A stretch of DNA of 53,177 nt from Phycisphaerales bacterium (lineage in GTDB: Bacteria > Planctomycetota > Phycisphaerae > Sedimentisphaerales > UBA12454), in contig JBDKUM010000235.1 of assembly GCA_039679715.1 (NCBI GenBank), positions 1-53,177 on the forward strand, given 5' to 3'. Position 1 is the first letter of the stretch, and the number at the start of each line of letters is the position of its first letter. A program made the position numbers and the translations under genes. The notes under the pieces were generated by a model. It had not been told where the DNA came from and searched no databases. It was given only the letters and a program-made list of their open reading frames with translations. Of the stretch, positions 2,844 through 23,579 are shown piece after piece.

Positions 2844-3863
2844 ATGATTGTAATTATGAAACAAGGCGCTTCCCAGCAGGATGTTGCCAACGTAGTAAAA
2901 CTTGTAAATGAATATGGCTTGAAAGAGCATGTTATCGTCGGCACCAACCGCACGGTCATCGCATGTCTAGGCGATAAACGCAATGTCGATAAAGGCGCAA
3001 TTGAACATGCGTCGAATGTCGAACGCATAGTTCCGATTCTCGCACCATATAAAATCGCTTCACGCGAAGTAAAAAAAGAAAACACGCAAATAAAAATCGG
3101 CGACAAAGCTTTTCCGCTTGGCGGCCCGAAGGTCGGCATCATTGCAGGCCCATGTTCAGTCGAAAATGAAAAGCAGCTTTTGTACACCGCAGATAAAGTC
3201 GCCGCCGCAGGCTGCATCGGCCTTCGCGCAGGTGCGTTTAAACCTCGAACAAGCCCGTATGCTTTCCAGGGCCTTGGCATTGAAGGTTTGAAGTTGTTAG
3301 CTAAAGCGAAAAAGAACACAGGCCTCGCGGTCGTTACCGAAGTTGTCGCCGTTGAGCATATCGAGATTGTCGCCGAGTACGTCGATGTGCTTCAGGTCGG
3401 CGCACGAAATATGCAGCACTATCCATTGCTTGAAGCTCTGGGCAAAGTCAAAAAACCTGTTCTGCTCAAACGCGGCATGAGCGCCCAGCTCGATGAATTT
3501 CTGCTCGCCGCCGAATATATCATCAACGCCGGCAACACGCAGGTAATTCTCTGCGAACGCGGCATCAGGACTTTCGAAGATTATGTCCGCAACACATTGG
3601 CTCTTGCGATAGTGCCGGAGTTGAAAAGCAAAACACATTTGCCGGTTGTCGTCGACCCTTCGCACGGCACAGGTCATTCGCATTTGATTCCCGCAATGTG
3701 CAGGGCAGCGATTGCCGCCGGTGCAGATGGTCTGCTAATCGAATGCCACCACGATCCGCAGCATGCGTTAAGTGACGGCGCGCAATCGATAACGCCCGAA
3801 GCGCTTGAACAATTAATGAAGCAGATTAAAGCAATTGCAAAAGCAATCGACCGCGACGTGTAA
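2844..3863 (+). CDS. aroF: DAHP synthase (type I-beta, N-terminal regulatory domain)
   Basis: [36 protein letters not shown] and VDPSH motifs. Confidence 0.93.
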
Positions 3864-8409: not shown

Positions 8410-9258
8410 TTGTCACATAAGATATTGTCTAAAAAGAACTTAAGTAAGGATGTCTTTATCGCGGATATTGAAGCCCCGCTGGTCGCTTCGGCAGCTAAAG
8501 CAGGGCAATTTGTAATTGTTTGTCTCAAAACATCTTATAGCGAGCGCATACCTCTTACCATAGCAGGAACTGACCTTAAGAATGGCACAATCCGGCTTGT
8601 CTGGCAGGCGATAGGCAAAAGTACTGTTGAATTAGGCAATATGCAGGTTGGCGATGAAGTTGAAAACATCCTCGGCCCGCTTGGCAAACCGACCCATATT
8701 GAAAAATTCGGTACAGTTCTTTGCGTTGGCGGAGGCATCGGCAACGCTCCTCTGCTTCCAATCGCCAAGGCCATGAAAGAAGCGGGCAATAAAGTTATAA
8801 GTATACTGGGAGCAAGAAATAAAGAGCTTTTGATTCTTGAAGATGATTTCAAAACCATTAGCGATGAACTTATTATAGTAACAGATGATGGCTCTTACGG
8901 TCGTAAAGCAGTCGTTACCGTCCCGCTTGACGAGATTTGCCAGAGAGAGAAAGTCGATCTGGTTGTCGCCATAGGCCCGACAATAATGATGAAATTCGCA
9001 AGTCTGGCAGCAGCCAAACATAACGTTCACGTTGTCGTATCTCTTAATACTATAATGATTGACGGTACAGGTATGTGCGGCGGATGTCGCGTTGAAGTCG
9101 GCGGAAAAACAAAATTCGTTTGCGTTGACGGCCCTGAATTCGACGGCCGGCAGGTCAATTTCGATTTAATGATGAAAAGAATGCAGGCATATAAAAAACA
9201 GGAACAGCAGGCTCTGGAACAATATAAACATAAATGCAAAATTGGACTTGAGAAATAA
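8410..9258 (+). CDS. NfnA/SudB-like FAD- and [2Fe-2S]-binding subunit
   Basis: ERIPLTI, GPLG, GGGIG, MIDGTGMCGGCRV and CVDGPEF motifs. Confidence 0.9.
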   Translation: MSHKILSKKNLSKDVFIADIEAPLVASAAKAGQFVIVCLKTSYSERIPLTIAGTDLKNGTIRLVWQAIGKSTVELGNMQVGDEVENILGPLGKPTHIEKFGTVLCVGGGIGNAPLLPIAKAMKEAGNKVISILGARNKELLILEDDFKTISDELIIVTDDGSYGRKAVVTVPLDEICQREKVDLVVAIGPTIMMKFASLAAAKHNVHVVVSLNTIMIDGTGMCGGCRVEVGGKTKFVCVDGPEFDGRQVNFDLMMKRMQAYKKQEQQALEQYKHKCKIGLEK

Positions 9259-10727
9259 TGAACGACGAACAATTGCTAGAAGAACTTTTGAAAAAACACA
9301 AAGCTGGAACCTTGAAACCAGCAGATAGGTATAACATTCCTCCGCAGGCAATGCCGCAGCAGGATGGCGCTGTTCGCCGTTCTAACGTAAGCGAAGTTGC
9401 GCAAGGTTACTCTGAAACACAAGCAAGGCTGGAAGCTCTCCGCTGCCTCGGCTGCAAAAATGCGCCATGTATGGAAGGCTGCCCGGTAAAAATAAAAATC
9501 AAAGATTTCATCGCCCAGATCGTTAATGGCGATTTCCAGAAAGCTCTGGATATTATTCGTGAAAACTCTCTTTTACCTGCTGTTTGCGGCAGAGTTTGCC
9601 CGCAGGAAGTCCAATGCCAACTGCCTTGCACAGTCGGCAAGAAATTCAAAGATGTGAATATGTCCGTTTCGATTGGCAGACTTGAAAGGTTTGTCGCCGA
9701 TTGGGGCAGAAAGCAAAAAGATAGTTCCGCACCTGCGATCGCGGCTCCAACAGGCAAAAAAGTTGCAATTTTAGGCGCAGGCCCCGGCGGAATTGTCGCC
9801 GCCGCCGATACCCGCAGAGCAGGGCATGATGTAACTGTTTTTGAAGCGTTCCACAAGCCCGGCGGTGTTATGGTCTACGGAATCCCTGAATTTCGTCTCC
9901 CAAAAGCGATAGTACAGGAGGAAATTGAGCAGCTTAAGAAGATGGGCGTTAAAATTATATGCAATTTTGTCGCAGGTCGAACCAAAACCATCAAAGATTT
10001 AATGCAAAAGGACGGTTTTGACGCTGTTTATGTAGGCGTAGGGGCGGGTTTGCCGATGTTTATGAACATCGAAGGCGAACATTTAATTGGCGTTTACAGT
10101 GCCAATGAATATTTAACCCGCGCAAATTTAATGCGTGCATATGACTTCGGTAAAGGCGCCGACACTCCGATTGCGATGTCTAAACGTGTCGCGGTTGTCG
10201 GAGGCGGAAACGTCGCGATGGATGCCGCAAGAACAGCCGTTAGATTAGGCGCAGAAAAGGTTTATCTGATTTATAGACGCAGCGAAAAAGAAATGCCCGC
10301 TCGTATCGAAGAGGTTCACCATGCAAAAGAAGAGGGCATTGAATTCCATCTCTTGCGAAATCCTAAACGAATCATTGGCAATGCGGAAGGCATTGTTACA
10401 GGCATTGAATGTTTGAAATACGAGCTTGGCGAACCGGATGCATCGGGCAGAAGAAGACCTGTCCCGATTGAAGGTTCAGAATTCACAATTGAAGTTGATA
10501 CGGTCGTTGTAGCGATAGGAAATGGCGCAAATCCGCTCATCGGCCAGACCACCCCCGGCCTTGAACTTACAAAGTGGGGTAATATCGTTGTTGATGAAAA
10601 ATGCGCAACTTCTATTAAAGGCGTCTACGCCGGTGGAGACATTGTTCTCGGTGCCGCGACTGTAATCCTTGCAATGGGTCAGGGCCGAACCGCCGCGGCG
10701 GCAATCAACGAATATTTAAAGAAATGA
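9258..10727 (+). CDS. NfnB/SudA-like (GltD-like) NADPH-dependent flavo-iron-sulfur subunit
   Basis: RCLGCKNAPCMEGCP, CGRVCPQEVQC, YGIPEFRLPK, GGGNVAMDAAR; overlaps the stop of the NfnA-like gene. Confidence 0.9.
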   Translation: MNDEQLLEELLKKHKAGTLKPADRYNIPPQAMPQQDGAVRRSNVSEVAQGYSETQARLEALRCLGCKNAPCMEGCPVKIKIKDFIAQIVNGDFQKALDIIRENSLLPAVCGRVCPQEVQCQLPCTVGKKFKDVNMSVSIGRLERFVADWGRKQKDSSAPAIAAPTGKKVAILGAGPGGIVAAADTRRAGHDVTVFEAFHKPGGVMVYGIPEFRLPKAIVQEEIEQLKKMGVKIICNFVAGRTKTIKDLMQKDGFDAVYVGVGAGLPMFMNIEGEHLIGVYSANEYLTRANLMRAYDFGKGADTPIAMSKRVAVVGGGNVAMDAARTAVRLGAEKVYLIYRRSEKEMPARIEEVHHAKEEGIEFHLLRNPKRIIGNAEGIVTGIECLKYELGEPDASGRRRPVPIEGSEFTIEVDTVVVAIGNGANPLIGQTTPGLELTKWGNIVVDEKCATSIKGVYAGGDIVLGAATVILAMGQGRTAAAAINEYLKK

Positions 10728-10769
10728 TTTTCGGATAAAGACTGTTGTTCACATTTTTTATTTCCTTAT

Positions 10770-10864
10770 GGAATCTCTACTAATTTTAAAGCAAGAGATT
10801 GCTTCGTCGTTTTTTGCGCTAAAAGCCCAAAAAACTCCTCGCAATGACATTATTAAAGATTTTC
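10770..10864. repeat. MITE/REP-like element family C (GAGATTGC...CGCAATGAC core with imperfect terminal inverted repeats)
   Basis: Same architecture at 33267, 39038, 49139 and 52993. Confidence 0.8.
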
Positions 10865-10875
10865 TTATATTTAAT

Positions 10876-11305
10876 AGGGTAAAGGTATAAGGTATAAAAA
10901 GGAAAGCTGAACTTCCAAGGTCTCAATGTAAAAAATTTTTAATTACCACAAATCAAACTTATCAAACAAAAATAACAGAGCCGGCAGCACAGCGGCAGAT
11001 AAAAGGAAAAATTAAATATTCCCAGTCGTAAAATACGCCGGGTTATTTAGTTTACTTTTTCCCAATCACGGTAAAAGTGTCGGGTTCTTTAGTTAGTTAA
11101 TTTTTCCCAGCCACGATAAAAAGTGCGGGGTTCTTTACTTAGTTACTTTTGCCGGTCACGATAAAAAGTGCCGGGTTCTTTGCTCTAATAACCCCGCTGA
11201 TTGAATCGCGGGCTAAGTTCTGTCGTTTTTGGGCTCGGCCAAAGACTGCCAGACTCTGTCAAATTTAAACGCGCATTAGATTTATACCCTATGACCTTCT
11301 ACCCT
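10876..11305 (-). ncRNA. Candidate ~430-nt structured non-coding RNA, family not recognised
   Basis: No ORF; nested long-range stems (11281-11305 with 10876-10898; 11246-11260 with 10974-10987) enclose five similar hairpins; G-U pairs favour the minus strand. Confidence 0.6.
11021..11212 (-). repeat. Five tandem bulged hairpins at 40-46 nt spacing
   Basis: Units at 11021-11042, 11061-11084, 11106-11130, 11152-11174 and 11193-11212 with A-rich linkers mostly ending in GAAC. Confidence 0.85.
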
Positions 11306-11321
11306 TAGGCGGAACTTGCGC
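11295..11321 (-). promoter_or_regulatory. Motif GCGCAAGTTC-N4-TAAGGGTAGAAGG shared with the portal-gene upstream region
   Basis: 22/27 identical to 49511-49537 with the same spacing. Confidence 0.5.
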
Positions 11322-11631
11322 GAATTTTAATGAAATTAGTGAAATTTTTTTTCGGATTTTTTGTAAGCGGCTGTCAAATAATACCAATTGGCATTATTAC
11401 TCCGCGTCGAGAGGTTTGTAAGTCATTGAGTTAAGCGGAGCTTAAGCTTCGCTTAAGCCGCGGACAACTTCTCCCCAAGGGACGCTACGCGGAGTATTTT
11501 TGGGATCCGTATAAAAATGAATTTTTTTTTGGAAATTTTGAAATCGCAAGTTTTTACCTGCGCGATTTTGCTAAATCAGATTTTAAGAGGTCGCCTTAAA
11601 TTCAAACCAAAATTAAAAATTCCAATTTACT

Positions 11632-11961
11632 TTATAAATCAGCTGCTTCAGATTTTCGGATCTCACCTTCGATTCGGTTTTTGCGGTCCCAAATTATTAA
11701 ATATGTTGTCAGGCGTATATGCGCCCATATTTTCATCAACGCGATATTTACAACTCCGACGACTGCTAAAAATAATCCCAAAAACAATTTTCTTATTTGA
11801 CTATCATTTGCGTTTAGAATCATACTAAGGCCGTCGAGTGTGATAAAGACTGAAATAATTAAAAAAATCCAATAAGTTATTTCCGTCTTAGTTACTTTTT
11901 TGAGAATGTCTTCGCACGTTGGCTGCTCCTCAAAAGCTTTTGCCCAATTAAAAAATCTCAT
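11632..11961 (-). CDS. Small hypothetical membrane protein (2 TM)
   Basis: Two hydrophobic segments; ATGA overlap with the upstream DUF2089-like gene. Confidence 0.7.
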   Translation of the reverse strand: MRFFNWAKAFEEQPTCEDILKKVTKTEITYWIFLIISVFITLDGLSMILNANDSQIRKLFLGLFLAVVGVVNIALMKIWAHIRLTTYLIIWDRKNRIEGEIRKSEAADL

Positions 11962-12269
11962 ATATTTTTCCCTTCATTATTTAAAGTTTCTTCATGTATT
12001 TTTAATAACGATTTTGCTGTAGCTAAATCAATTTTCCCTTCGATCACGAGCACTTGCAGTTTTTGGTGAAATTTTGATTTAGTTTTTTTTGAATCCAGGA
12101 TTTGTATTTTCTCGATCAGACGATTTAGTTTTATTCTGATAGTAGGATATGTAATAGTATATTGCTGCGCAACGTCCTTAAGCGAACCTGAAGCCAAAAG
12201 CAGCCTTTTTATAAATTGCCAATCTTCTTCATTTAAGCCTTTTGCCCAATCCGGAATTGTATTTTCCAT
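11958..12269 (-). CDS. DUF2089-family HTH protein
   Basis: LNEEDWQFIKRLLLASGSLK..YPTIRIKLNRLIEK pattern. Confidence 0.8.
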   Translation of the reverse strand: MENTIPDWAKGLNEEDWQFIKRLLLASGSLKDVAQQYTITYPTIRIKLNRLIEKIQILDSKKTKSKFHQKLQVLVIEGKIDLATAKSLLKIHEETLNNEGKNI

Positions 12270-12397
12270 CTTACAGCCTTCAATTATATACTTTAATAAT
12301 AGTAAAATACACTTTAATTTTATTAAAGCAAGAGAAATATTAATAAAATTAAAATAAATTTCAATTTTGTTAAAGAAGGGATTATTCGGTAAGCAGC

Positions 12398-13762
12398 TTA
12401 TTTCGTCATTTTCAAATCACTAATTACTATTCGATGATCAGAATTTATGGTCTTTTTTGCGTAAACAGCAATTGGCGAGTATTTATCATTTGCCCAGATT
12501 TGGTCTATTCTGAATAGCGGGACTGTATTTAAAGCGGTATGTCCCCAGCCGGTGCCGGCCTTGTTAAATGTGTCTTTAATGTGAGTTTTCAAAGCTTTAA
12601 GACAGCCATCATTTGAGGAAACATTAAAATCCCCGCCGAGAATTATGGGGGTATTTTTTGGAATGTTTTTAAGCTGTTCTGCAATGATGGCGACTTGTTT
12701 GCGTCGGGATTTCCTGTCATCAGCATGATTATGCCAGCAATCTGGCGAAAATAAATTTATATTAGCAACCGGCGGCTCAAGATGAATCGAAAATATATCA
12801 GTTTCAATTCCATTTTTCAATTTCGCATGAACCTGCGTAACAAACAAACTTTTAGGTTTTGAAAATTCGATTTTTTCAAATTTGCCATTTGCTATTATAG
12901 CTGTGTCTGCATCATAAGCGATTGCTGAATCGGAGCCAAAAAGCTTTGCGGCAAAATTCTCTAAAACTTCTTTTTTGGTTGGTATTTCCTGAAGTAAAAG
13001 GATATCAGGATGCAAGGGGATTACCTCCTGCATTGTTTCTGGATTTCCACCAAGACAATTTAAAGATATGACCCTCAATTTATTTTCCGCAGGTATCGAT
13101 TGCCATTCTTCATTTGAAACAAAAAATTGTCTTATGAAACTTCTCGGCTCATCTGCAAAAATAAAAAAGAAAACAGCCCATAATTGAATCATTAATATGC
13201 AAAATCTTTTGTTTAAAAATCGAATTAAGAGGGAAATAATTATGCCAGCTAAACCCCACGACCACGCAGGGAAAAAGGTCATTGCGGCCAAACTGTCGGG
13301 CTTTAAACTGTAAGCAAATGTCAGAAAAACCATTAACAGAAGAGAGATAGCAAAAGCTGCTTTTCCAATGAAAGGAAATTTTACTGATTTCATTTTTCTT
13401 TTTTGAAGGTAAAGAATTTTGTTGTCCTCAATCAGGAAAAAATCATTTTTCAGTATATTACCATTATATTTTATTCGGGTGAAATCTTTATTTACTTCGC
13501 ACGTTCCTTCATCAACGATTTCAGCGGTGCCGGTGTTTTTGTTGACAGGGCCTTGATACGTGAGGAATTTTTTATCGTGATCCTGGATTGGTGTTGCTTT
13601 GGTTTTTACAGGGTTTAACTTGTCGGAGTCTCCTGCTAATTTTTCAGGCGGATTTTCCAGTCTCCATGTTTTTAAAACATCTCCGTCTTCTATCATCAAA
13701 TCCCAATGAATATCATCTCCGCGGGTGTGTTTGTGAATAACAAACTGTCTCTGATTATGCAT
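12398..13762 (-). CDS. Apparent fusion: LigD-type 3'-phosphoesterase domain + 3 TM + EEP (endonuclease/exonuclease/phosphatase) domain
   Basis: FVIHKH..HWDLMIE..LKTW..DH...LTYQG N-terminus; LLQE, GGDFN, RIDQIW and SDHR in the C-terminus. Confidence 0.75.
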   Translation of the reverse strand: MHNQRQFVIHKHTRGDDIHWDLMIEDGDVLKTWRLENPPEKLAGDSDKLNPVKTKATPIQDHDKKFLTYQGPVNKNTGTAEIVDEGTCEVNKDFTRIKYNGNILKNDFFLIEDNKILYLQKRKMKSVKFPFIGKAAFAISLLLMVFLTFAYSLKPDSLAAMTFFPAWSWGLAGIIISLLIRFLNKRFCILMIQLWAVFFFIFADEPRSFIRQFFVSNEEWQSIPAENKLRVISLNCLGGNPETMQEVIPLHPDILLLQEIPTKKEVLENFAAKLFGSDSAIAYDADTAIIANGKFEKIEFSKPKSLFVTQVHAKLKNGIETDIFSIHLEPPVANINLFSPDCWHNHADDRKSRRKQVAIIAEQLKNIPKNTPIILGGDFNVSSNDGCLKALKTHIKDTFNKAGTGWGHTALNTVPLFRIDQIWANDKYSPIAVYAKKTINSDHRIVISDLKMTK

Positions 13763-15072: not shown

Positions 15073-15146
15073 TACGCCCGACAGGAGTCGAACCTGTAAC
15101 CTTCGGCTTCGTAGGCCGGCACTCTATCCAATTGAGCTACGGGCGC
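15073..15146 (-). tRNA. tRNA-Arg (anticodon ACG), CCA not encoded
   Basis: GCGCCCGTAGCTCAATTGGATAGAG...CTACGAA...GGTTCGACTCCTGTCGGGCGTA cloverleaf. Confidence 0.96.
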
Positions 15147-19832: not shown

Positions 19833-20602
19833 AAACTCGCAAATTCGGCCACTACCGGTGTATGGTCGCTGGGCTTTTCAAGCATTCTCGGCTTTTTGTC
19901 AATCACACAGCTAATACAGACATTAGCCATTGCAGGAGTCCCCATTATATAGTCAAGCCTCCAGCCTTTGTTGCGATTTACAGTAGTAGGGTCTCGATAA
20001 TCGAAATATGAATATTGACCTTCATCTGCGCAAAATTTCCTGAATAAATCCACAAACCCCCAATCGATAAAACCTTTGAAAATTTCTGAAAGTTCTTTAT
20101 TAAAACATACATGGCCTTCCATCCGTTTCGGATCATGCACATCTCTCGCTTCGTACGCGATATTCAAATCGCCCATCCACAAAATATTATCCGCAGGTTT
20201 ATAATTTTTCTTAAAATATTCAAGCAGCCTTTTGTACCAGTTGATTTTATATTCGTATTTTGCCGATTCGATCATGAAGCCTTGCGGAATATATGTATTA
20301 ATTATAATAAGATTTTCAAGCTGTGCTTTAACCATCCGAGATTCGTCTTTAGGTTCACTATCAAGCCCGAACTCGACAGCTTCCAGTTTTTTTTGGCTGA
20401 ATATAGCCACACCATTATAGCTTTTCTCGCCTTTATAAACAAAGTCATAGCCGCTGAACGCAAAAGCTTCTACAGGAAAATCCTTATCCTGCACTTTCGT
20501 TTCCTGAACGCAAAGTACATCCGGCTTGTTTTCCTCCAGCCAATCAAGAATTATCTGTGTTCGTGAACGTATCGAATTCGCGTTAAATGTTGCAATTTTC
20601 AT
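19829..20602 (-). CDS. xth: Exodeoxyribonuclease III
   Basis: ATFNANS, CVQETK, YNGVA, MGDLN, GWRLDY and PSDH motifs. Confidence 0.95.
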   Translation of the reverse strand: MKIATFNANSIRSRTQIILDWLEENKPDVLCVQETKVQDKDFPVEAFAFSGYDFVYKGEKSYNGVAIFSQKKLEAVEFGLDSEPKDESRMVKAQLENLIIINTYIPQGFMIESAKYEYKINWYKRLLEYFKKNYKPADNILWMGDLNIAYEARDVHDPKRMEGHVCFNKELSEIFKGFIDWGFVDLFRKFCADEGQYSYFDYRDPTTVNRNKGWRLDYIMGTPAMANVCISCVIDKKPRMLEKPSDHTPVVAEFASF

Positions 20603-23313
20603 AATGACTTGATCAATCTAACAAAGTAATCTGTTTCATCTTCTTTAACATTTTTTTTATCTATCACGCTCAAATTAGCTCTTACTTTCCAGCTTTTATC
20701 ATTTTCGATTTTTGCGATTTGCTGCTGGTTTAATTTATACCCGATTTTCTCAAGTAATGAAAGACACAATGCCCGCAAATTTTCTTTATCGCTTTGAAGA
20801 CCTTTTAAAAGTATCTCTGCTGAATCAGCGTCAATAAAATATTCGATTCCAAAAACTTCAATATGTTCATCTCCATAATAAGCCTTTAAAATCAGACTTA
20901 AAACATTTTTTGCTGTTTTGTTATCCCAGTAAAATCCGCCTGTTTCCCGCAGCGGATAAAGCAACTGCATCTTTCTTAAATCTTCCATGCTGTCAATTTC
21001 TTTTTCCACCTTTTCCAGATATAAATTTAAAACCTTTCTTGCATAAGGGGTCGGCAGCAATGTGATTGCTCGTTTATGGAAATACATGTCGAGTCTCTCG
21101 GCCTTGTGCGATTCAAAATATTCGTTTACCAAATCAACCGTTTCATTCGGTTCAAGAATAACCGTTAAAGCCGTTATAAGCTGATATTCTCTCGGTATTT
21201 CTTCTGATCTTTTACTTTCAAAGGCTGGTTCATCGCCAATGTTTCTTCTTTCCGCTAAAACTTTTAACAACGCATCTTTAATCTGTTTATCGCCAAGCAA
21301 TGCTCTTGCCGTTAAAGTCCTTGGTTTATCAGGGTTGTTGATTGAGCCGACAATGCTTGCAAGCTGATCTTTGCCTGCGAACATTAAATATCCTGTCATA
21401 ATGCGGTCAAAATTCTCTCCTGAAGTTTTATCATTTACATCGTTTATTCTTAAAAATCCAATTGGTTGTAGCTCCGTATATTTTCTTTTTTTGAGGTCCT
21501 GCAATACTGCCGTCAAATCATCTGATTGAACCAGAGGTAGAAAATAAATAAAGGTGTGCTCGGACGAATTTACATCATAAAGTTTCTTTAAGATTTCCTT
21601 ATATCCTTTTTTTGCGTTGCCTGAATACGAATAAATCTGTTTGCCGTTGTATTTTTTTATTTCGCTATTTATTGATTTAAAAGTCGGCGGCGTAAGCAGC
21701 AGAACTATGAACCAGCAGATTAAAAATGAAATACCGGACAAATAAAGCAGCTCTGCCCTAATATCAGCGATTCCTTCTTTGCCGCTGCCTGCTAAGGCTC
21801 TTAATATATTTCTCATTTTAAGTTTGCGGAAAGAATATTTAAATGCATACAGAATGAAGAATACCGCTAAAAAGTATTTAAAATATTTATGCCCCTGTAT
21901 AACACCCGCTAGTAAACCAGCCGGTATAGCAAGCAATATCGCGCCGATGATTCTGGTAACAATATTATCGAAATGCGGTTTAAAGAATTTTACAATGCCC
22001 ATTAAATTAAAGGCAGCAAATGAAATAAAAGGCAGAAAGACGTAAAATGGAGCGTCAGCAATTTCTTTCAAATCTCTCCAGCTTAAGCCGCTTAAAACTT
22101 CCTTGAGAAATGCCGGAAAAAGAAAAATTTCAGAATATGTATAATGAGTATGGCCCATGGCCAGCTCGCCCATTATTTCAGCTGTAAATATAAGCATGCC
22201 TGAAAATACGAAGATAATACTGTAAATCATGTATCTTCCCAGTGCGCCTTTGCTGATTTTAAAGCCGGCAAGTTTTTCTCTTCGTAAAATTATTAAAATA
22301 AAAAGTATTAAGCCGATTGTAAAATATATAAAAGATAACCTTGATAGCAGCAAAAAGGGAAATATCGCTAAAACGTATTTATTGGCGTCTTTCCTTTCGT
22401 CATAAGATTCATGCTGTGATTTAGCGATAGTGTCAAAGCTGAAATATGAGGCCAATTCCATTCTTCTTTCGTCTGCCTCTGCTTTTGTTAAATTTAACCT
22501 CTGCAATTCCAGTTGTTGAGGCAGCTGCCAGCCTCCGAAACCGCCCGGCATACTCCATTGCATACGCTGCAATCTGTCTTCTGTAGTAGTTTGTTTTATG
22601 AGCAGACTTATTTCCTTTTCTTCGTCCAGCCGGTTTTCTGTTATCAGAAAATTCTGATATTTAATTAGTTCCCGCCTTGTATCATAAAGATAAAAATCAT
22701 AATATGCTTCGTAGTTTAATTCTTCTATCAGCCGAAAATGCAAATCCTGCTTTTTTGCCAAAGATATGACTCTCTGCTTATATAACAAGTATGGATTTTT
22801 CCTGCCGGGGCATTGTCCTGCTTTTTTAAGTGTTTCAATTACCTTACTGAAATCATTGCCTTTTCTGCTTTTCAGCAATGCGTAAGCTTTGAGGTTGTAA
22901 TAATTCTCATTTTCACTGTCGAGTTGAATGAGCCGCTCTGCCAGTTTAGATAAGATAAGAGGGCTTAAACCTTCTTCGATTGCTCTGTAGCTGTTTGTTG
23001 CAAGTTCATAGAGGAAATACTGGTTGGCCGGATATTTTAAACAATTTTTTGCAAGTATTTCAAATTTATTTGCGTCATCGCGTTCAAAATAAGAGAGTTT
23101 ATAATTTATGATTGCAGCCGCTTGCGGGTCTGTCTTTTCATTTTTTTTATTGATGGCTGGAATTCTTGGGTTGTACCCGTTAAACATTTTGGGATCAAAA
23201 TTTTTGTGTAGTTTCCAGTATTCAGTCCAGATACTTTTTAAATTATTCCGCTGGAGATATGTGAAGTAAATACATACTGTCAATCCGATTAAAAGCAATT
23301 TCCCTAATCTCAT
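20599..23313 (-). CDS. Large hypothetical membrane protein (helical N-domain, multi-TM core, HEAT-like C-terminus)
   Basis: 904-aa ORF; several hydrophobic segments; LLKGLQSDKENLRA and DKSWKVRA resemble HEAT repeats. Confidence 0.65.
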   Translation of the reverse strand: MRLGKLLLIGLTVCIYFTYLQRNNLKSIWTEYWKLHKNFDPKMFNGYNPRIPAINKKNEKTDPQAAAIINYKLSYFERDDANKFEILAKNCLKYPANQYFLYELATNSYRAIEEGLSPLILSKLAERLIQLDSENENYYNLKAYALLKSRKGNDFSKVIETLKKAGQCPGRKNPYLLYKQRVISLAKKQDLHFRLIEELNYEAYYDFYLYDTRRELIKYQNFLITENRLDEEKEISLLIKQTTTEDRLQRMQWSMPGGFGGWQLPQQLELQRLNLTKAEADERRMELASYFSFDTIAKSQHESYDERKDANKYVLAIFPFLLLSRLSFIYFTIGLILFILIILRREKLAGFKISKGALGRYMIYSIIFVFSGMLIFTAEIMGELAMGHTHYTYSEIFLFPAFLKEVLSGLSWRDLKEIADAPFYVFLPFISFAAFNLMGIVKFFKPHFDNIVTRIIGAILLAIPAGLLAGVIQGHKYFKYFLAVFFILYAFKYSFRKLKMRNILRALAGSGKEGIADIRAELLYLSGISFLICWFIVLLLTPPTFKSINSEIKKYNGKQIYSYSGNAKKGYKEILKKLYDVNSSEHTFIYFLPLVQSDDLTAVLQDLKKRKYTELQPIGFLRINDVNDKTSGENFDRIMTGYLMFAGKDQLASIVGSINNPDKPRTLTARALLGDKQIKDALLKVLAERRNIGDEPAFESKRSEEIPREYQLITALTVILEPNETVDLVNEYFESHKAERLDMYFHKRAITLLPTPYARKVLNLYLEKVEKEIDSMEDLRKMQLLYPLRETGGFYWDNKTAKNVLSLILKAYYGDEHIEVFGIEYFIDADSAEILLKGLQSDKENLRALCLSLLEKIGYKLNQQQIAKIENDKSWKVRANLSVIDKKNVKEDETDYFVRLIKSL

Positions 23314-23579
23314 ATATCAGCCTCTGCCATGAAAGATATGATGCATTATATAGTCATTTCATCCTATAAATATTTAATTCTGATTTACTTTTCAATTACT
23401 TTTATCACACTTTTTATCGCTTTCTGGATACTTATGGACTACTTTTTGACACTTTTTGAACACTTATTTCACACTTTTTTTCGCTTTTTTCACACTTTTT
23501 TGTGTCATTTTACATCGTTTTTTTTCAATTATGCGCAAGTTCCGGCAAAAATGCGCATGATAATAACTGCATCAGTTTG

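What the first reader, a model, noticed from the sequence alone, without database searches (positions are those of the whole stretch)
10876..11305. Unannotated ~430-nt highly structured RNA candidate on the minus strand
Seen: an ORF-free region with nested complementarity. The 5' end AGGGUAGAAGGUCAUAGGGUAUAAA (11305-11281) pairs with the 3' end UUUAUACCUUAUACCUUUACCCU (10898-10876) over about 23 bp with 2 bulges. UCUAAUG (11280-11274) pairs with CAUUGAGA (10928-10921). GACAGAGUCUGGCAG (11260-11246) pairs with CUGCCGGCUCUGUU (10987-10974) over 14 bp. These stems enclose a hairpin array. Several positions are G-U pairs on the minus strand but A-C mismatches on the plus strand, which suggests selection at the RNA level. 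It does not resemble tmRNA, RNase P, 6S or SRP to my eye. Inference: a novel large ncRNA.
Basis: partly seen in the sequence, partly recalled or inferred. Interest (0 to 1): 0.85.

Follow-up and report, generated by a model that had tools for sequence, protein, structure and literature searches.

The report
Two-copy structured hairpin-array RNA candidate
A 430-base gene-free stretch folds into a nested stem-and-hairpin-array shape, has one diverged sister copy in the same genome and none found elsewhere, and is probably a lineage-specific non-coding RNA whose role is still a guess.

Summary
Window 10876-11305 (minus strand) folds at -127.3 kcal/mol, z = -4.8 against shuffles; the plus strand gives z = -3.5. 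They enclose four 45-46-nt units, each a hairpin with a bulged base.

No Rfam family matches. It is not a MITE: the genome holds only this copy and one diverged paralogue on contig C183. The paralogue has one hairpin unit, the same architecture, and also folds better in the sense strand (z -3.1 against -1.5).

I found no relative in 150 other genomes of the order, in two large contig collections, in viral contigs, phages or plasmids.

New context: the 5' end abuts a dispersed, family-specific ~160-nt element ('E'). In sister genera E's outward end sits 115-160 nt upstream of multi-copy HNH-AP2 endonuclease genes. The candidate therefore occupies a 'gene' position behind a promoter-like module.

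A metatranscriptome from the probable source study holds three exact contigs inside it; their strand is unknown.

Best reading (about 0.4): a stand-alone structured ncRNA acting as a multivalent hairpin scaffold. The function is inferred, and covariation support is thin. The main rival is a by-product mosaic of intergenic repeats.

The parts
10876..11305 (-). X: the candidate structured RNA (430 nt as delimited by the outer stem P1)
   Evidence: MFE -127.3 kcal/mol, z -4.80. Single copy plus one paralogue, C183:1870-2200.
11281..11305 (-). P1 5' strand (AGGGUAGAAGGUCAUAGGGUAUAAA). Its first ~12 nt are also the outer end of element E, read on the other strand.
   Evidence: Pair probabilities. 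Overlap with the E left end in alignments A4 and A5.
10876..10898 (-). P1 3' strand: a pyrimidine-rich heptamer-type repeat (ACCUUAU x 3.6)
   Evidence: TRF period 7; pairs. Similar heptamer repeats occur elsewhere in the genome without a partner arm in the 600-700 nt printed around each.
11246..11259 (-). P3 5' strand (ACAGAGUCUGGCAG)
   Evidence: 13 pairs with 10975-10987, probability 1.00 for 11 of them. ACAGAG / CUCUGU is conserved in the paralogue.
10975..10987 (-). P3 3' strand (CUGCCGGCUCUGU), followed by the conserved UAUUUU
   Evidence: The 14-mer GGCTCTGTTATTTT is identical in both paralogues.
11193..11212 (-). Hb: a GC-rich hairpin (CCCGC...GCGGG) between the conserved CAGAAC and UAGAGC blocks
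   Evidence: Folded alone: -10.0 kcal/mol. The paralogue has a hairpin of different sequence at the same place (UUUUGCCGU/GCGGCAAAA, probability 0.66-1.00). In the full-length fold of the window copy, Hb is replaced by a swap with unit U2 (probability 0.00).
11009..11184 (-). Array of four 45-46-nt units. Each is AAAGAA + an 8-9-bp hairpin with one bulged base (A in U1, U3 and U4; G in U2) and a U-rich loop + an A-rich linker.
   Evidence: TRF, alignment A3, R1 hits of 51.9-65.8 bits. 94.9% of cells paired and 2 pairs with double changes.
11302..11322 (-). Promoter-like module: the box CGCGCAAGTTC (11322-11312) and a -10-like hexamer TAAGGG (11307-11302; degenerate here, TAAATA in the paralogue)
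   Evidence: Conserved in both paralogues. The homologous module lies 115-160 nt upstream of HNH-AP2 genes in G014 and G015.
11292..11575 (+). Element E: a dispersed, family-specific ~160-nt element, here split by a ~140-nt inserted repeat. It lies on the strand opposite to X, and its left end abuts X.
   Evidence: Alignments A4 and A5, blastn, nhmmer. Distribution: 17 of 25 family genomes and 0 of 35 from other families.
10766..10875 (-). REP-like dispersed hairpin repeat directly 3' of X; a possible 3' end or stabiliser
   Evidence: More than 20 matches in the genome. The paralogue is also followed by a REP-like repeat.

Best explanation
X (10876-11305, minus strand) is a lineage-specific, stand-alone structured non-coding RNA of roughly 400 nt. 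It is one of two paralogues in this genome.

Transcription (inferred): it starts at a promoter-like module, the box CGCGCAAGTTC plus a -10-like hexamer. This module forms the outward-facing end of a dispersed element, E. In sister genera the same module precedes multi-copy HNH-AP2 endonuclease genes.

Structure (shown): the transcript's two ends pair in P1, which would shield them. A second long-range stem, P3, closes a multi-branch domain. That domain carries a small hairpin, a GC-rich hairpin (Hb), and one (C183) to four (window) copies of a module: AAAGAA, then an 8-9-bp stem with a bulged base (A in four of the five units) and a U-rich loop, then an A-rich linker.

Mechanism (inferred): each module is a binding site for one RNA-binding protein, so the RNA acts as a multivalent scaffold or decoy. 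Its valency changes by tandem duplication, in the manner of CsrB/RsmZ-type RNAs but with a different, unknown partner.

Shown: the structure, the strand bias, the paralogue, the conserved upstream module, and presence in an RNA library. Inferred: the transcription start, the strand of the transcript, protein binding, and any function.
For: Fold: z -4.80 in sense against -3.49 in antisense. The paralogue gives z -3.12 in sense against -1.53 in antisense.

P1 and P3 have high pairing probability in both paralogues, although the partner strands differ. In the P1 core, UAGA-A-GGU pairs with ACC-UUUA in the window and with AAUC-UCUA in C183. These are one-sided G.U/G-C changes, with the same bulged A.

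Hb is a hairpin of different sequence at the same place in both copies.

In the hairpin unit, 94.9% of 39 cells are paired. Two pairs show double changes (G-C to A-U; A-U to G-C), against 0.4 expected; 21 of 500 shuffles reach this. Slid controls give 15-40% paired.

Sense-strand G.U pairs make U3, U4 and the C183 unit 3-5 kcal/mol more stable than their antisense versions.

The longest identical block between the paralogues (20 nt, TAGAGCAAAGAACCCGGCAC) is the start of the first unit.

Copy number is 2, so it is not a dispersed repeat.

Upstream module: it is homologous to the outward end of E. In G014 and G015, 7 of 7 loci have an ORF 20-240 nt away on the outward strand. Five of 6 ORFs scanned carry HNH_3. 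Four complete genes start 115-160 nt from the box, behind a start-proximal hairpin or purine-rich repeats.

RNA library X2, from the same study as the probable source sample, holds three exact contigs at 11082-11251. It holds only one other exact piece in the 5 kb laid (10043-10260).

No ORF of 60 aa or more lies in X, and no ORF is conserved between the two copies.
Against: There are only two sequences, from one metagenome-assembled genome.

No relative of the unit or of the whole element was found in any of these searches:
- 60 relatives by blastn (best non-self E 0.013)
- 60 relatives by model R1 (best 25.6 bits)
- 150 other genomes of the order (0 of 150 at E <= 0.05)
- Genome contigs (10 hits) and metagenome contigs (8 hits), none with the hairpin or other X features, most inside apparent coding sequence
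- viral contigs, phages and plasmids

Most conserved pairs between the paralogues never vary: 22 the same, 2 one-sided, 0 double in the anchored two-sequence alifold. The unit hairpin statistic is weak (21 of 500 shuffles), and the units are copies of each other.

U1 and U2 fold slightly better in antisense.

The -10-like hexamer of the window copy (TAAGGG) is degenerate, and no sigma-70-like promoter was found just upstream.

The RNA evidence is contigs only: no strand, no ends, DNA carry-over possible, and roughly a 1-in-10 chance of landing in X at random. A second RNA run (X4) shows nothing there.

A near-identical strain in another study carries a change that breaks one pair of U4 (plus-strand C11023A).

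P1 is assembled from pieces that exist for other reasons: the E end and a heptamer repeat.

No partner protein is identified. No further copy of the unit motif exists in the genome (5 hits, all in the two loci), which argues against a decoy for a regulator with many like targets.
Confidence: 0.4

Rival explanations
1. By-product mosaic. The region is non-functional intergenic DNA assembled from this lineage's abundant repeat modules: the end of element E, heptamer repeats, REP-like hairpins and A-rich linkers. To these is added a locally amplified quasi-palindromic unit. The 'structure' follows from inverted and tandem repeats, and the C183 copy is a segmental duplicate of E+X.
For: X is flanked on both sides by dispersed repeats. 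Its 5' end is the end of E. Its 3' arm is a heptamer-type repeat, a sequence class found at other loci and in relatives.

The linkers (AAAAGUAA) resemble the purine-rich arrays that follow other E copies.

The homologous block between the two loci includes E itself, as expected for a duplicated segment.

The closest relative by the gltD-like protein (G001, 92% identity) has no X within the 674 nt downstream of that gene that its contig holds. The family is confined to one species among those searched.

Quasi-palindromes can acquire 'compensatory' changes by templated repair (established knowledge, not tested here).
Against: The two copies have diverged to about 60% identity overall. Yet they keep P1, P3, Hb and the unit hairpin as helices, with different partner sequences. 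They also keep a 20-nt and a 14-nt block intact.

The strand bias of folding appears in both copies.

Three other heptamer-repeat loci show no complementary arm in the 600-700 nt printed around each, so P1 is not a generic by-product.

X is present in an RNA library.
Confidence: 0.28
2. DNA-level array. The four inverted-repeat units are binding sites on double-stranded DNA for a regulator, or for a partition or replication protein. They would act as an operator or iteron array upstream of E's own promoter, or as a sopC-like centromere.
For: There are tandem 45-46-bp units, each with an inverted repeat. This resembles the 43-bp repeats of F-plasmid sopC (recalled). The array lies upstream of E, which has a terminator-like right end and may be its own transcription unit. 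An HTH gene (DUF2089) lies nearby.
Against: The half-sites are asymmetric (one bulged base). Three of the five units keep pairing only through G.U, which means A.C mismatches on the other strand; a double-stranded site would not select for this.

The 45-46-bp spacing is not a whole number of helical turns (inference).

The paralogue has a single unit, and its neighbours are unrelated: mraZ, rsmH and an acetyltransferase. No par or rep genes lie beside either copy. The context is chromosomal housekeeping genes.
Confidence: 0.1
3. Plus-strand reading. The region is the long 3' UTR of the gltD-like operon (9258-10727, plus strand). The hairpins would act as tandem weak terminators or RNA-stability elements.
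For: On the plus strand each hairpin is followed by UUCUUU(A/G). The plus strand also folds better than shuffles (z -3.49). U1 and U2 are slightly more stable on that strand. The RNA library also covers part of the gltD-like gene.
Against: The terminator scan found none of them. The array starts about 280 nt after the stop codon, behind a REP hairpin.

The paralogue's antisense strand folds no better than chance (z -1.53, with 6 of 100 shuffles as good). There is no gene upstream of it in that orientation.

G.U pairs favour the minus strand.
Confidence: 0.08
4. Processed repeat RNA. The array is an orphan type-III-antitoxin-like or CRISPR-like precursor that an endoribonuclease cuts into 46-nt units.
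For: There are tandem direct repeats of 45-46 nt, within the size range recalled for type III antitoxin repeats. Each has a hairpin that could be a processing signal.
Against: No ORF of 60 aa or more follows the repeats on either strand before the neighbouring genes. No ToxN family match exists in the genome, though the control genomes did not ring either.

The units are only 63-86% identical. The variable part is about 10 nt, too short for spacers. The paralogue has one unit. The genome's CRISPR-like arrays have other repeats and periods of 65-71.
Confidence: 0.04

Closest known systems
CsrB/RsmZ-type protein-sequestering sRNAs (features recalled)
   Same: A stand-alone non-coding RNA made of repeated hairpin modules. 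The number of modules differs between paralogues, and the modules are separated by single-stranded linkers. The genome encodes CsrA: two genes.
   Different: No sequence or Rfam match. GGA is not enriched (4 observed against 5.05 expected) and never lies in a loop. The loops are U-rich, and the conserved part is the stem with its bulged base. The modules are enclosed by two long-range stems.
Type III toxin-antitoxin antitoxin RNAs (ToxI/AntiQ/CptI; recalled)
   Same: A tandem direct-repeat array of similar unit length in a non-coding transcript.
   Different: There is no adjacent toxin gene and no ToxN match. The repeats have diverged. The array is embedded in a larger closed structure.
Large 'ornate' bacterial RNAs of unknown function (OLE, GOLLD, ROOL, raiA; recalled, all in Rfam)
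   Same: Several hundred nucleotides, multi-branch, closed by long-range stems, with no obvious cis target.
   Different: None of those models matches, even at E <= 10. Those families are widespread and supported by covariation. This one has two members in one species.
MITEs / REP-BIME clusters
   Same: Terminal inverted arms (P1), hairpin units, and a position between convergent genes amid other dispersed repeats.
   Different: Two copies only. The paralogue lacks matching terminal inverted repeats. The unit occurs 5 times, at two loci only.
F-plasmid sopC-type centromere repeats (recalled)
   Same: Tandem units of about 43-46 bp, each holding an inverted repeat.
   Different: Chromosomal context without partition genes. 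The arms are asymmetric and G.U-dependent. The paralogue has a single unit.

Membership tests
Any Rfam 15 family | Score at or above the family's gathering threshold | tested here: not met
   The whole window gave only a tRNA at 15073-15146. With E <= 10 on 10600-12500, only chance hits to eukaryotic lncRNA/snoRNA models at 7.5-21.9 bits. The paralogue locus gave nothing.
MITE | Many dispersed copies in the genome | tested here: not met
   blastn with word size 7 and an nhmmer profile find only C235 and C183.
MITE | Terminal inverted repeats shared by copies, with target-site duplication | tested here: inconclusive
   The window copy has 23-bp arms. The C183 copy closes with different, short sequences. 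A 2-bp TA duplication cannot be judged.
Type III TA antitoxin RNA | Tandem direct repeats of about 35-45 nt | tested here: met
   Four units with period 45-46.
Type III TA antitoxin RNA | Toxin endoribonuclease gene directly downstream on the same strand | tested here: not met
   No ORF of 60 aa or more lies between the array and the neighbouring genes. PF13958 gave no match in G000, but the control genomes did not ring either.
CsrB/RsmZ-type sponge | Many GGA motifs, mostly in hairpin loops | tested here: not met
   4 GGA in 430 nt against 5.05 +/- 2.0 in shuffles. Three sit at the 3' foot of stems and none in a loop.
CsrB/RsmZ-type sponge | CsrA present in the genome | tested here: met
   Two matches, at 89.9 and 80.4 bits.
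CrcZ-type Hfq decoy | Hfq present in the genome | tested here: not met
   PF17209 gave no match in G000 (96.95% complete). The control rang in 5 of 14 genomes.
CRISPR array | Conserved repeats alternating with unique spacers of about 30 nt or more | tested here: not met
   The period is 45-46, and only about 10 nt vary between units. The genome's CRISPR-like arrays have periods of 65-71.
REP/BIME | Unit present at tens to hundreds of loci | tested here: not met
   Model R1 gave 5 hits in G000, all in the two loci.
Structured ncRNA (generic claim) | Helices supported by covariation across homologues | tested here: inconclusive
   Unit hairpin: 2 of 8 pairs show double changes, reached by 21 of 500 shuffles. 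Two-paralogue alifold: 22 invariant pairs, 2 one-sided, 0 double. No further homologues were found to test.
Structured ncRNA (generic claim) | A discrete transcript on the predicted strand | not testable with these tools
   Only unstranded contigs of one RNA library are available: 11082-11251 at 100% identity.

The most novel reading that the evidence does not exclude
E is the promoter and leader cassette of a family-specific, multi-copy HNH-AP2 endonuclease gene. In this species, which seems to have lost those genes, the cassette drives RNA-only cargoes instead. X would then be a new class of modular, end-sealed scaffold RNA. Its bulged hairpins would titrate or assemble a so far unknown protein, and the array would grow by tandem duplication (one module at C183, four here).
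Probability: 0.2. Interest if true: 0.6.

Novelty: new variant of a known kind. Interest (0 to 1): 0.4.

Why it matters
If real, this is a structured RNA of about 400 nt with no relative in Rfam. It comes from an uncultured wastewater bacterium and is built from an expandable array of one protein-sized binding module. It is wired to the promoter cassette of a selfish endonuclease gene family.

That would give a concrete case of how new regulatory RNAs arise from repeat-rich intergenic DNA and from mobile promoters. It would also give a defined hairpin to use as bait for a new RNA-binding protein.

If it is only a repeat mosaic, it is a useful warning. Inverted heptamer repeats and tandem quasi-palindromes can produce z-scores near -5 and apparent compensatory changes without any function.

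Tried and rejected
Known RNA families: Rfam at gathering and at E <= 10 gave nothing relevant.

MITE: rejected on copy number.

Homologue hunts that found nothing usable:
- blastn of X in 60 relatives. All 'matches' were 16-46-nt chance hits, the best at E 0.013.
- A 19-mer with up to 3 mismatches in the 26 family genomes. Ten of the 18 non-self hits were inspected and all lay in apparent coding sequence; the reversed-pattern control also hit.
- Model R1 in 60 relatives and in 150 other genomes of the order.
- The 20-mer TAGAGCAAAGAACCCNNCAC in genome contigs (10 hits) and metagenome contigs (8 hits). None has the hairpin or other X features, and most lie inside apparent coding sequence.
- An 18-mer in viral contigs: 22 hits, with R1 at 23.8 bits or below.
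- Phages and plasmids by blastn: no match.
- blastn of the whole C183 intergenic region in 30 relatives: only REP, AT-rich and E matches.

Synteny: gltD-like orthologues occur in 11 of 11 genus relatives, but the downstream DNA differs in each. One relative (G002) has purine heptamer repeats and four unrelated hairpins there. One of these shares an 11-mer with unit U2, but blastn does not support homology, so I treat it as a lead only.

CsrB-like, CrcZ-like and type III antitoxin readings were rejected on the tests listed under membership.

X as the decayed remains of an HNH-AP2 unit: the 5' UTRs and 3' flanks of four complete units in G014 and G015 share nothing with X beyond the E end.

E as an invertible promoter: all 12 aligned copies have the body in the same orientation relative to the flanks. 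No support.

Sigma-70 promoter scan: only weak, non-homologous candidates upstream of the two copies.

RNA runs: X4 has nothing in X, and the parts of X outside 11082-11251 are uncovered in X2. Contigs cannot show absence.

Taxonomy of the genome was not determined. An Atlas search with the neighbouring 109-aa ORF gave no clear relatives.

Papers: two searches, of which I saw the listings only and read no paper. The box 10-mers occur only in unrelated papers, apparently as oligonucleotide sequences. The search for tandem stem-loops and protein sequestration returned general reviews. Supplements were not consulted.

Full report
**What is there.**
The minus strand of 10876-11305 was read.

In the partition function, P1 (11305-11281 with 10898-10876) forms 23 pairs with two bulges. 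P3 (11259-11246 with 10987-10975) forms 13 pairs with one bulge. Both have probabilities near 1 for most pairs.

Between the strands of P3 lie three things:
- a short hairpin;
- a GC-rich hairpin, Hb;
- four tandem units of 45-46 nt (TRF; alignment A3).

Each unit reads AAAGAA, then an 8-9-bp stem with one bulged base (A in three of the four) and a U-rich loop, then an A-rich linker.

The whole 430 nt folds at -127.3 kcal/mol, z -4.80, with 0 of 100 shuffles as good. The plus strand gives -114.9 and z -3.49. No ORF of 60 aa or more lies inside.

**Known families and the MITE test.**
Rfam finds only a tRNA elsewhere in the window at gathering scores. It finds nothing credible at E <= 10 around the region.

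In the window's own genome (G000: 4.05 Mb, 425 contigs, 41% G+C, 96.95% complete) the 430 nt are single copy. The DNA on both sides belongs to dispersed repeat families: 11376-11524 and 10766-10875.

**A paralogue.**
A weak hit on contig C183 led to a second, diverged copy at C183:1870-2200, plus strand. The significant local alignment (window 11361-11149 with C183 1813-2039, running from about 40 nt upstream of the box through the first unit) is about 60% identical. These blocks are kept:
- the upstream box CGCGCAAGTTC;
- UAGAAGGU;
- ACAGAG ... GGCUCUGUUAUUUU (P3);
- CAGAAC;
- a 20-nt block, UAGAGCAAAGAACCCGGCAC, that begins the hairpin unit.

C183 has one unit instead of four. Its fold has the same plan:
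- An outer stem uses the same 5' strand, UAGA-A-GGU, with the same bulged A, but a different 3' partner (AAUC-UCUA against ACC-UUUA).
- P3 has 9 pairs at probability 0.97-1.00.
- Hb sits at the same place but with a different sequence (UUUUGCCGU/GCGGCAAAA against CCCGC/GCGGG).
- The bulged-A unit is present at probability 0.99-1.00.

The sense strand folds at z -3.12 and the antisense at z -1.53. An nhmmer profile of the two copies finds no third.

The neighbours of the two copies have nothing in common:
- Window: a gltD-like oxidoreductase pair (convergent), and a DUF2089 gene plus a small membrane ORF (upstream on the same strand).
- C183: mraZ/rsmH (divergent) and a 140-aa ORF.

This speaks for a trans-acting or self-contained element rather than a cis-regulator.

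**Structure-level evidence.**
Across the five units, 94.9% of 39 cells are standard pairs, against 15-40% when the partner is slid. Two of eight pairs show double changes (G-C to A-U in U3; A-U to G-C in U4), and one pair is G.U in three units. The covariation measures are reached by 16-21 of 500 shuffles. That is suggestive, not strong, and the units are kin.

Energies by strand favour the sense strand for:
- U3 (-8.5/-5.6);
- U4 (-10.8/-6.4);
- the C183 unit (-13.6/-8.3);
- P1 (-26.5/-22.5);
- P3 (-21.6/-17.0).

U1 and U2 lean slightly the other way.

An anchored two-sequence alifold keeps P3, Hb and U1, but with 22 invariant pairs, 2 one-sided changes and none double. The RNA reading is therefore supported by architecture and strand bias, not by statistics of covariation.

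**No relatives elsewhere.**
All of the following searches were negative.
- X by blastn in 60 relatives: only chance matches.
- Unit model R1 in the same 60: best 25.6 bits, against 51.9-65.8 for the five true units.
- R1 in 150 other genomes of the order: 0 at E <= 0.05.
- The conserved 20-mer in the 185,579-species contig set (10 hits) and in the JGI metagenome set (8 hits): none has the hairpin or other X features, and most lie inside apparent coding sequence.
- Viral contigs (22 hits, R1 at 23.8 bits or below), phages and plasmids.

The gltD-like gene has orthologues in all 11 other species of the genus, but the DNA after it differs in each. The closest relative (92% identity) has no X within the 674 nt that its contig holds.

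**The surroundings change the picture of the 5' end.**
The box and UAGAAGG are not private to X. They are the outer left end of a dispersed element of about 160 nt, which I call E. E lies on the opposite strand: window plus 11292-11575, split by the ~140-nt repeat at about 11367-11505; and C183 minus 1884-1728.

E has 13-nt inverted ends (AAAAACUUGCGCG / CGCGCAAGUUUUU), a T-rich tract and a terminator-like right end. Its only consensus helix joins the two ends and never varies.

E occurs in 17 of 25 genomes of the family, with at least 14 matches in some (at most 14 candidates per genome were scored). It occurs in 0 of 35 genomes of the other families searched.

In G014 and G015, the side of E that faces X here faces an ORF on the outward strand in 7 of 7 loci. 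Five of 6 ORFs scanned carry HNH_3 and two also carry AP2. Four complete genes of 196-207 aa start 115-160 nt from the box. They lie behind a -10-like hexamer (TATATA or TAATAC) at a fixed distance, followed in most of them by a start-proximal hairpin and purine-rich short repeats.

G000 itself has no HNH_3 match and no homologue of that protein. Its other four E copies face purine-rich GAAAAGUG arrays.

By analogy, which is an inference, the E end is an outward promoter/leader cassette, and X sits where the gene would be. X would then be transcribed in the sense predicted by the fold, starting within a few bases of 11300. P1 would play the part of the start-proximal hairpin.

Against this, the window's hexamer is degenerate (TAAGGG; TAAATA in C183), and no sigma-70-type site is shared by the two copies.

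**Expression.**
One DNA run holds 97% of the sampled words and is probably the source sample. A metatranscriptome of the same study holds three exact contigs covering 11082-11251, one of them a 112-nt insert between adapters. It holds one exact contig in the gltD-like gene (10043-10260) and nothing else exact in 8500-13500.

These are contigs, so there is no strand, no ends and no measure of level, and DNA carry-over cannot be excluded. I count this as a weak hint.

A DNA run of another study holds 10950-11090 with two changes. One of them breaks a pair of U4.

**How it most likely works.**
I commit to a stand-alone, end-sealed structured RNA whose repeated bulged hairpins are binding modules for one protein. 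It would be a scaffold or decoy whose valency changes by tandem duplication. My confidence is about 0.4 that X is a functional RNA of this general kind. Confidence in the binding mechanism itself is lower.

The reasons:
- The most conserved stretch of the family is the first module.
- The stem sequence and the bulge are conserved, rather than the loop.
- Module number varies between paralogues.
- Neither copy has a cis target.

The partner is not CsrA-like in the usual sense: GGA is not enriched and is absent from loops, although two csrA genes exist. It is not Hfq, which was not found. No ToxN-like toxin is adjacent or detected.

**Rivals.**
- By-product mosaic of repeats (0.28). The locus is plainly built in a repeat-rich context, and the family is young.
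- DNA-level binding array (0.10). The asymmetric, G.U-dependent arms and the single-unit paralogue speak against it.
- Plus-strand 3' UTR or terminator array (0.08). The paralogue and the strand bias speak against it.
- Processed repeat RNA (0.04).

**Novelty and score.**
Nothing like X is in Rfam. I found no paper on it, in two text searches of which I saw the listings only.

It works, if at all, like known modular sRNAs, but it is a member of none of them. I rate it a new variant of a known kind.

Interest is 0.4. It is a well-formed and unusual candidate with a paralogue and an interesting link to a selfish-gene promoter cassette. It is confined to one uncultured species, it is unstranded in the only RNA data, and it is beyond statistical test for now.

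Noticed in passing
window 11292-11575 (+); L029 1728-1884 (-); L102-L109, L134-L141: Element E: a ~160-nt dispersed element with 13-nt inverted ends (AAAAACTTGCGCG / CGCGCAAGTTTTT), a T-rich tract and a terminator-like right end. It was found in 17 of 25 genomes of the family and in 0 of 35 from other families. In G014 and G015 it lies directly upstream of multi-copy HNH_3-AP2 genes of about 200 aa. It could be their promoter/leader cassette, a MITE or a small RNA gene.
   Followed up: partly
window 23398-23501; G000 C176 ~500-640, C363, C130, C300 1746-1848: Purine-rich arrays of a GAAAAGTG-like motif (TRF period ~32), behind a conserved GATGTAAAATGACAC (-10-like). In the window they lie in the upstream region of the 904-aa gene at 20599-23313 (-). 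Elsewhere they follow E's outward end.
   Followed up: partly
window 11376-11524: A dispersed repeat with more than 20 matches in the genome, inserted into the window's copy of E. It contains a perfect AT-rich palindrome (AATAATGCCAATTGGTATTATT).
   Followed up: no
window 10766-10875 and L029 ~2196-2260: REP-like hairpin repeats (GTCATTGCGAGG...GAAGCAATC type) directly 3' of both X copies. Related REPs are found across the genus.
   Followed up: no
G000 genome-wide: The 10-mer CGCGCAAGTT occurs 36 times, against 6-12 for rearranged controls, mostly in intergenic DNA. About 10 copies lie ~75 nt upstream of a conserved cassette ending in TGGTATAAT, which looks like a strong extended -10 promoter.
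   Followed up: partly
L062 ~3095-3295 (G002, downstream of the gltD-like orthologue): At the syntenic place, a sister species has purine heptamer repeats and four different hairpins. On the strand corresponding to X-sense, each hairpin is followed by a U-run. One hairpin shares CCCAGCCACGA...GTG.CGGGG with unit U2. blastn does not support homology.
   Followed up: partly
G000 C169 10440-10740, C404 3435-3613, C143 7891-8120: Three tandem arrays with periods of 68, 71 and 65 nt that look like CRISPR arrays.
   Followed up: no
G000 C155 21559-21717 and C367 2495-2638: Two csrA homologues (89.9 and 80.4 bits). No Hfq, ToxN or HNH_3 family match was found in the genome.
   Followed up: no
window 11023 and 11006: A DNA run from another study holds 10950-11090 with two changes (plus-strand C11023A and G11006A). 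The first turns a C-G pair of unit U4 into C.U.
   Followed up: no
window 11632-12269 (-): A two-gene operon: DUF2089 (HTH plus a SHOCT-like tail) and a 109-aa two-helix membrane ORF with no Pfam family. Its Atlas model's structural neighbours include DUF6768-like and DUF202-like clusters.
   Followed up: partly
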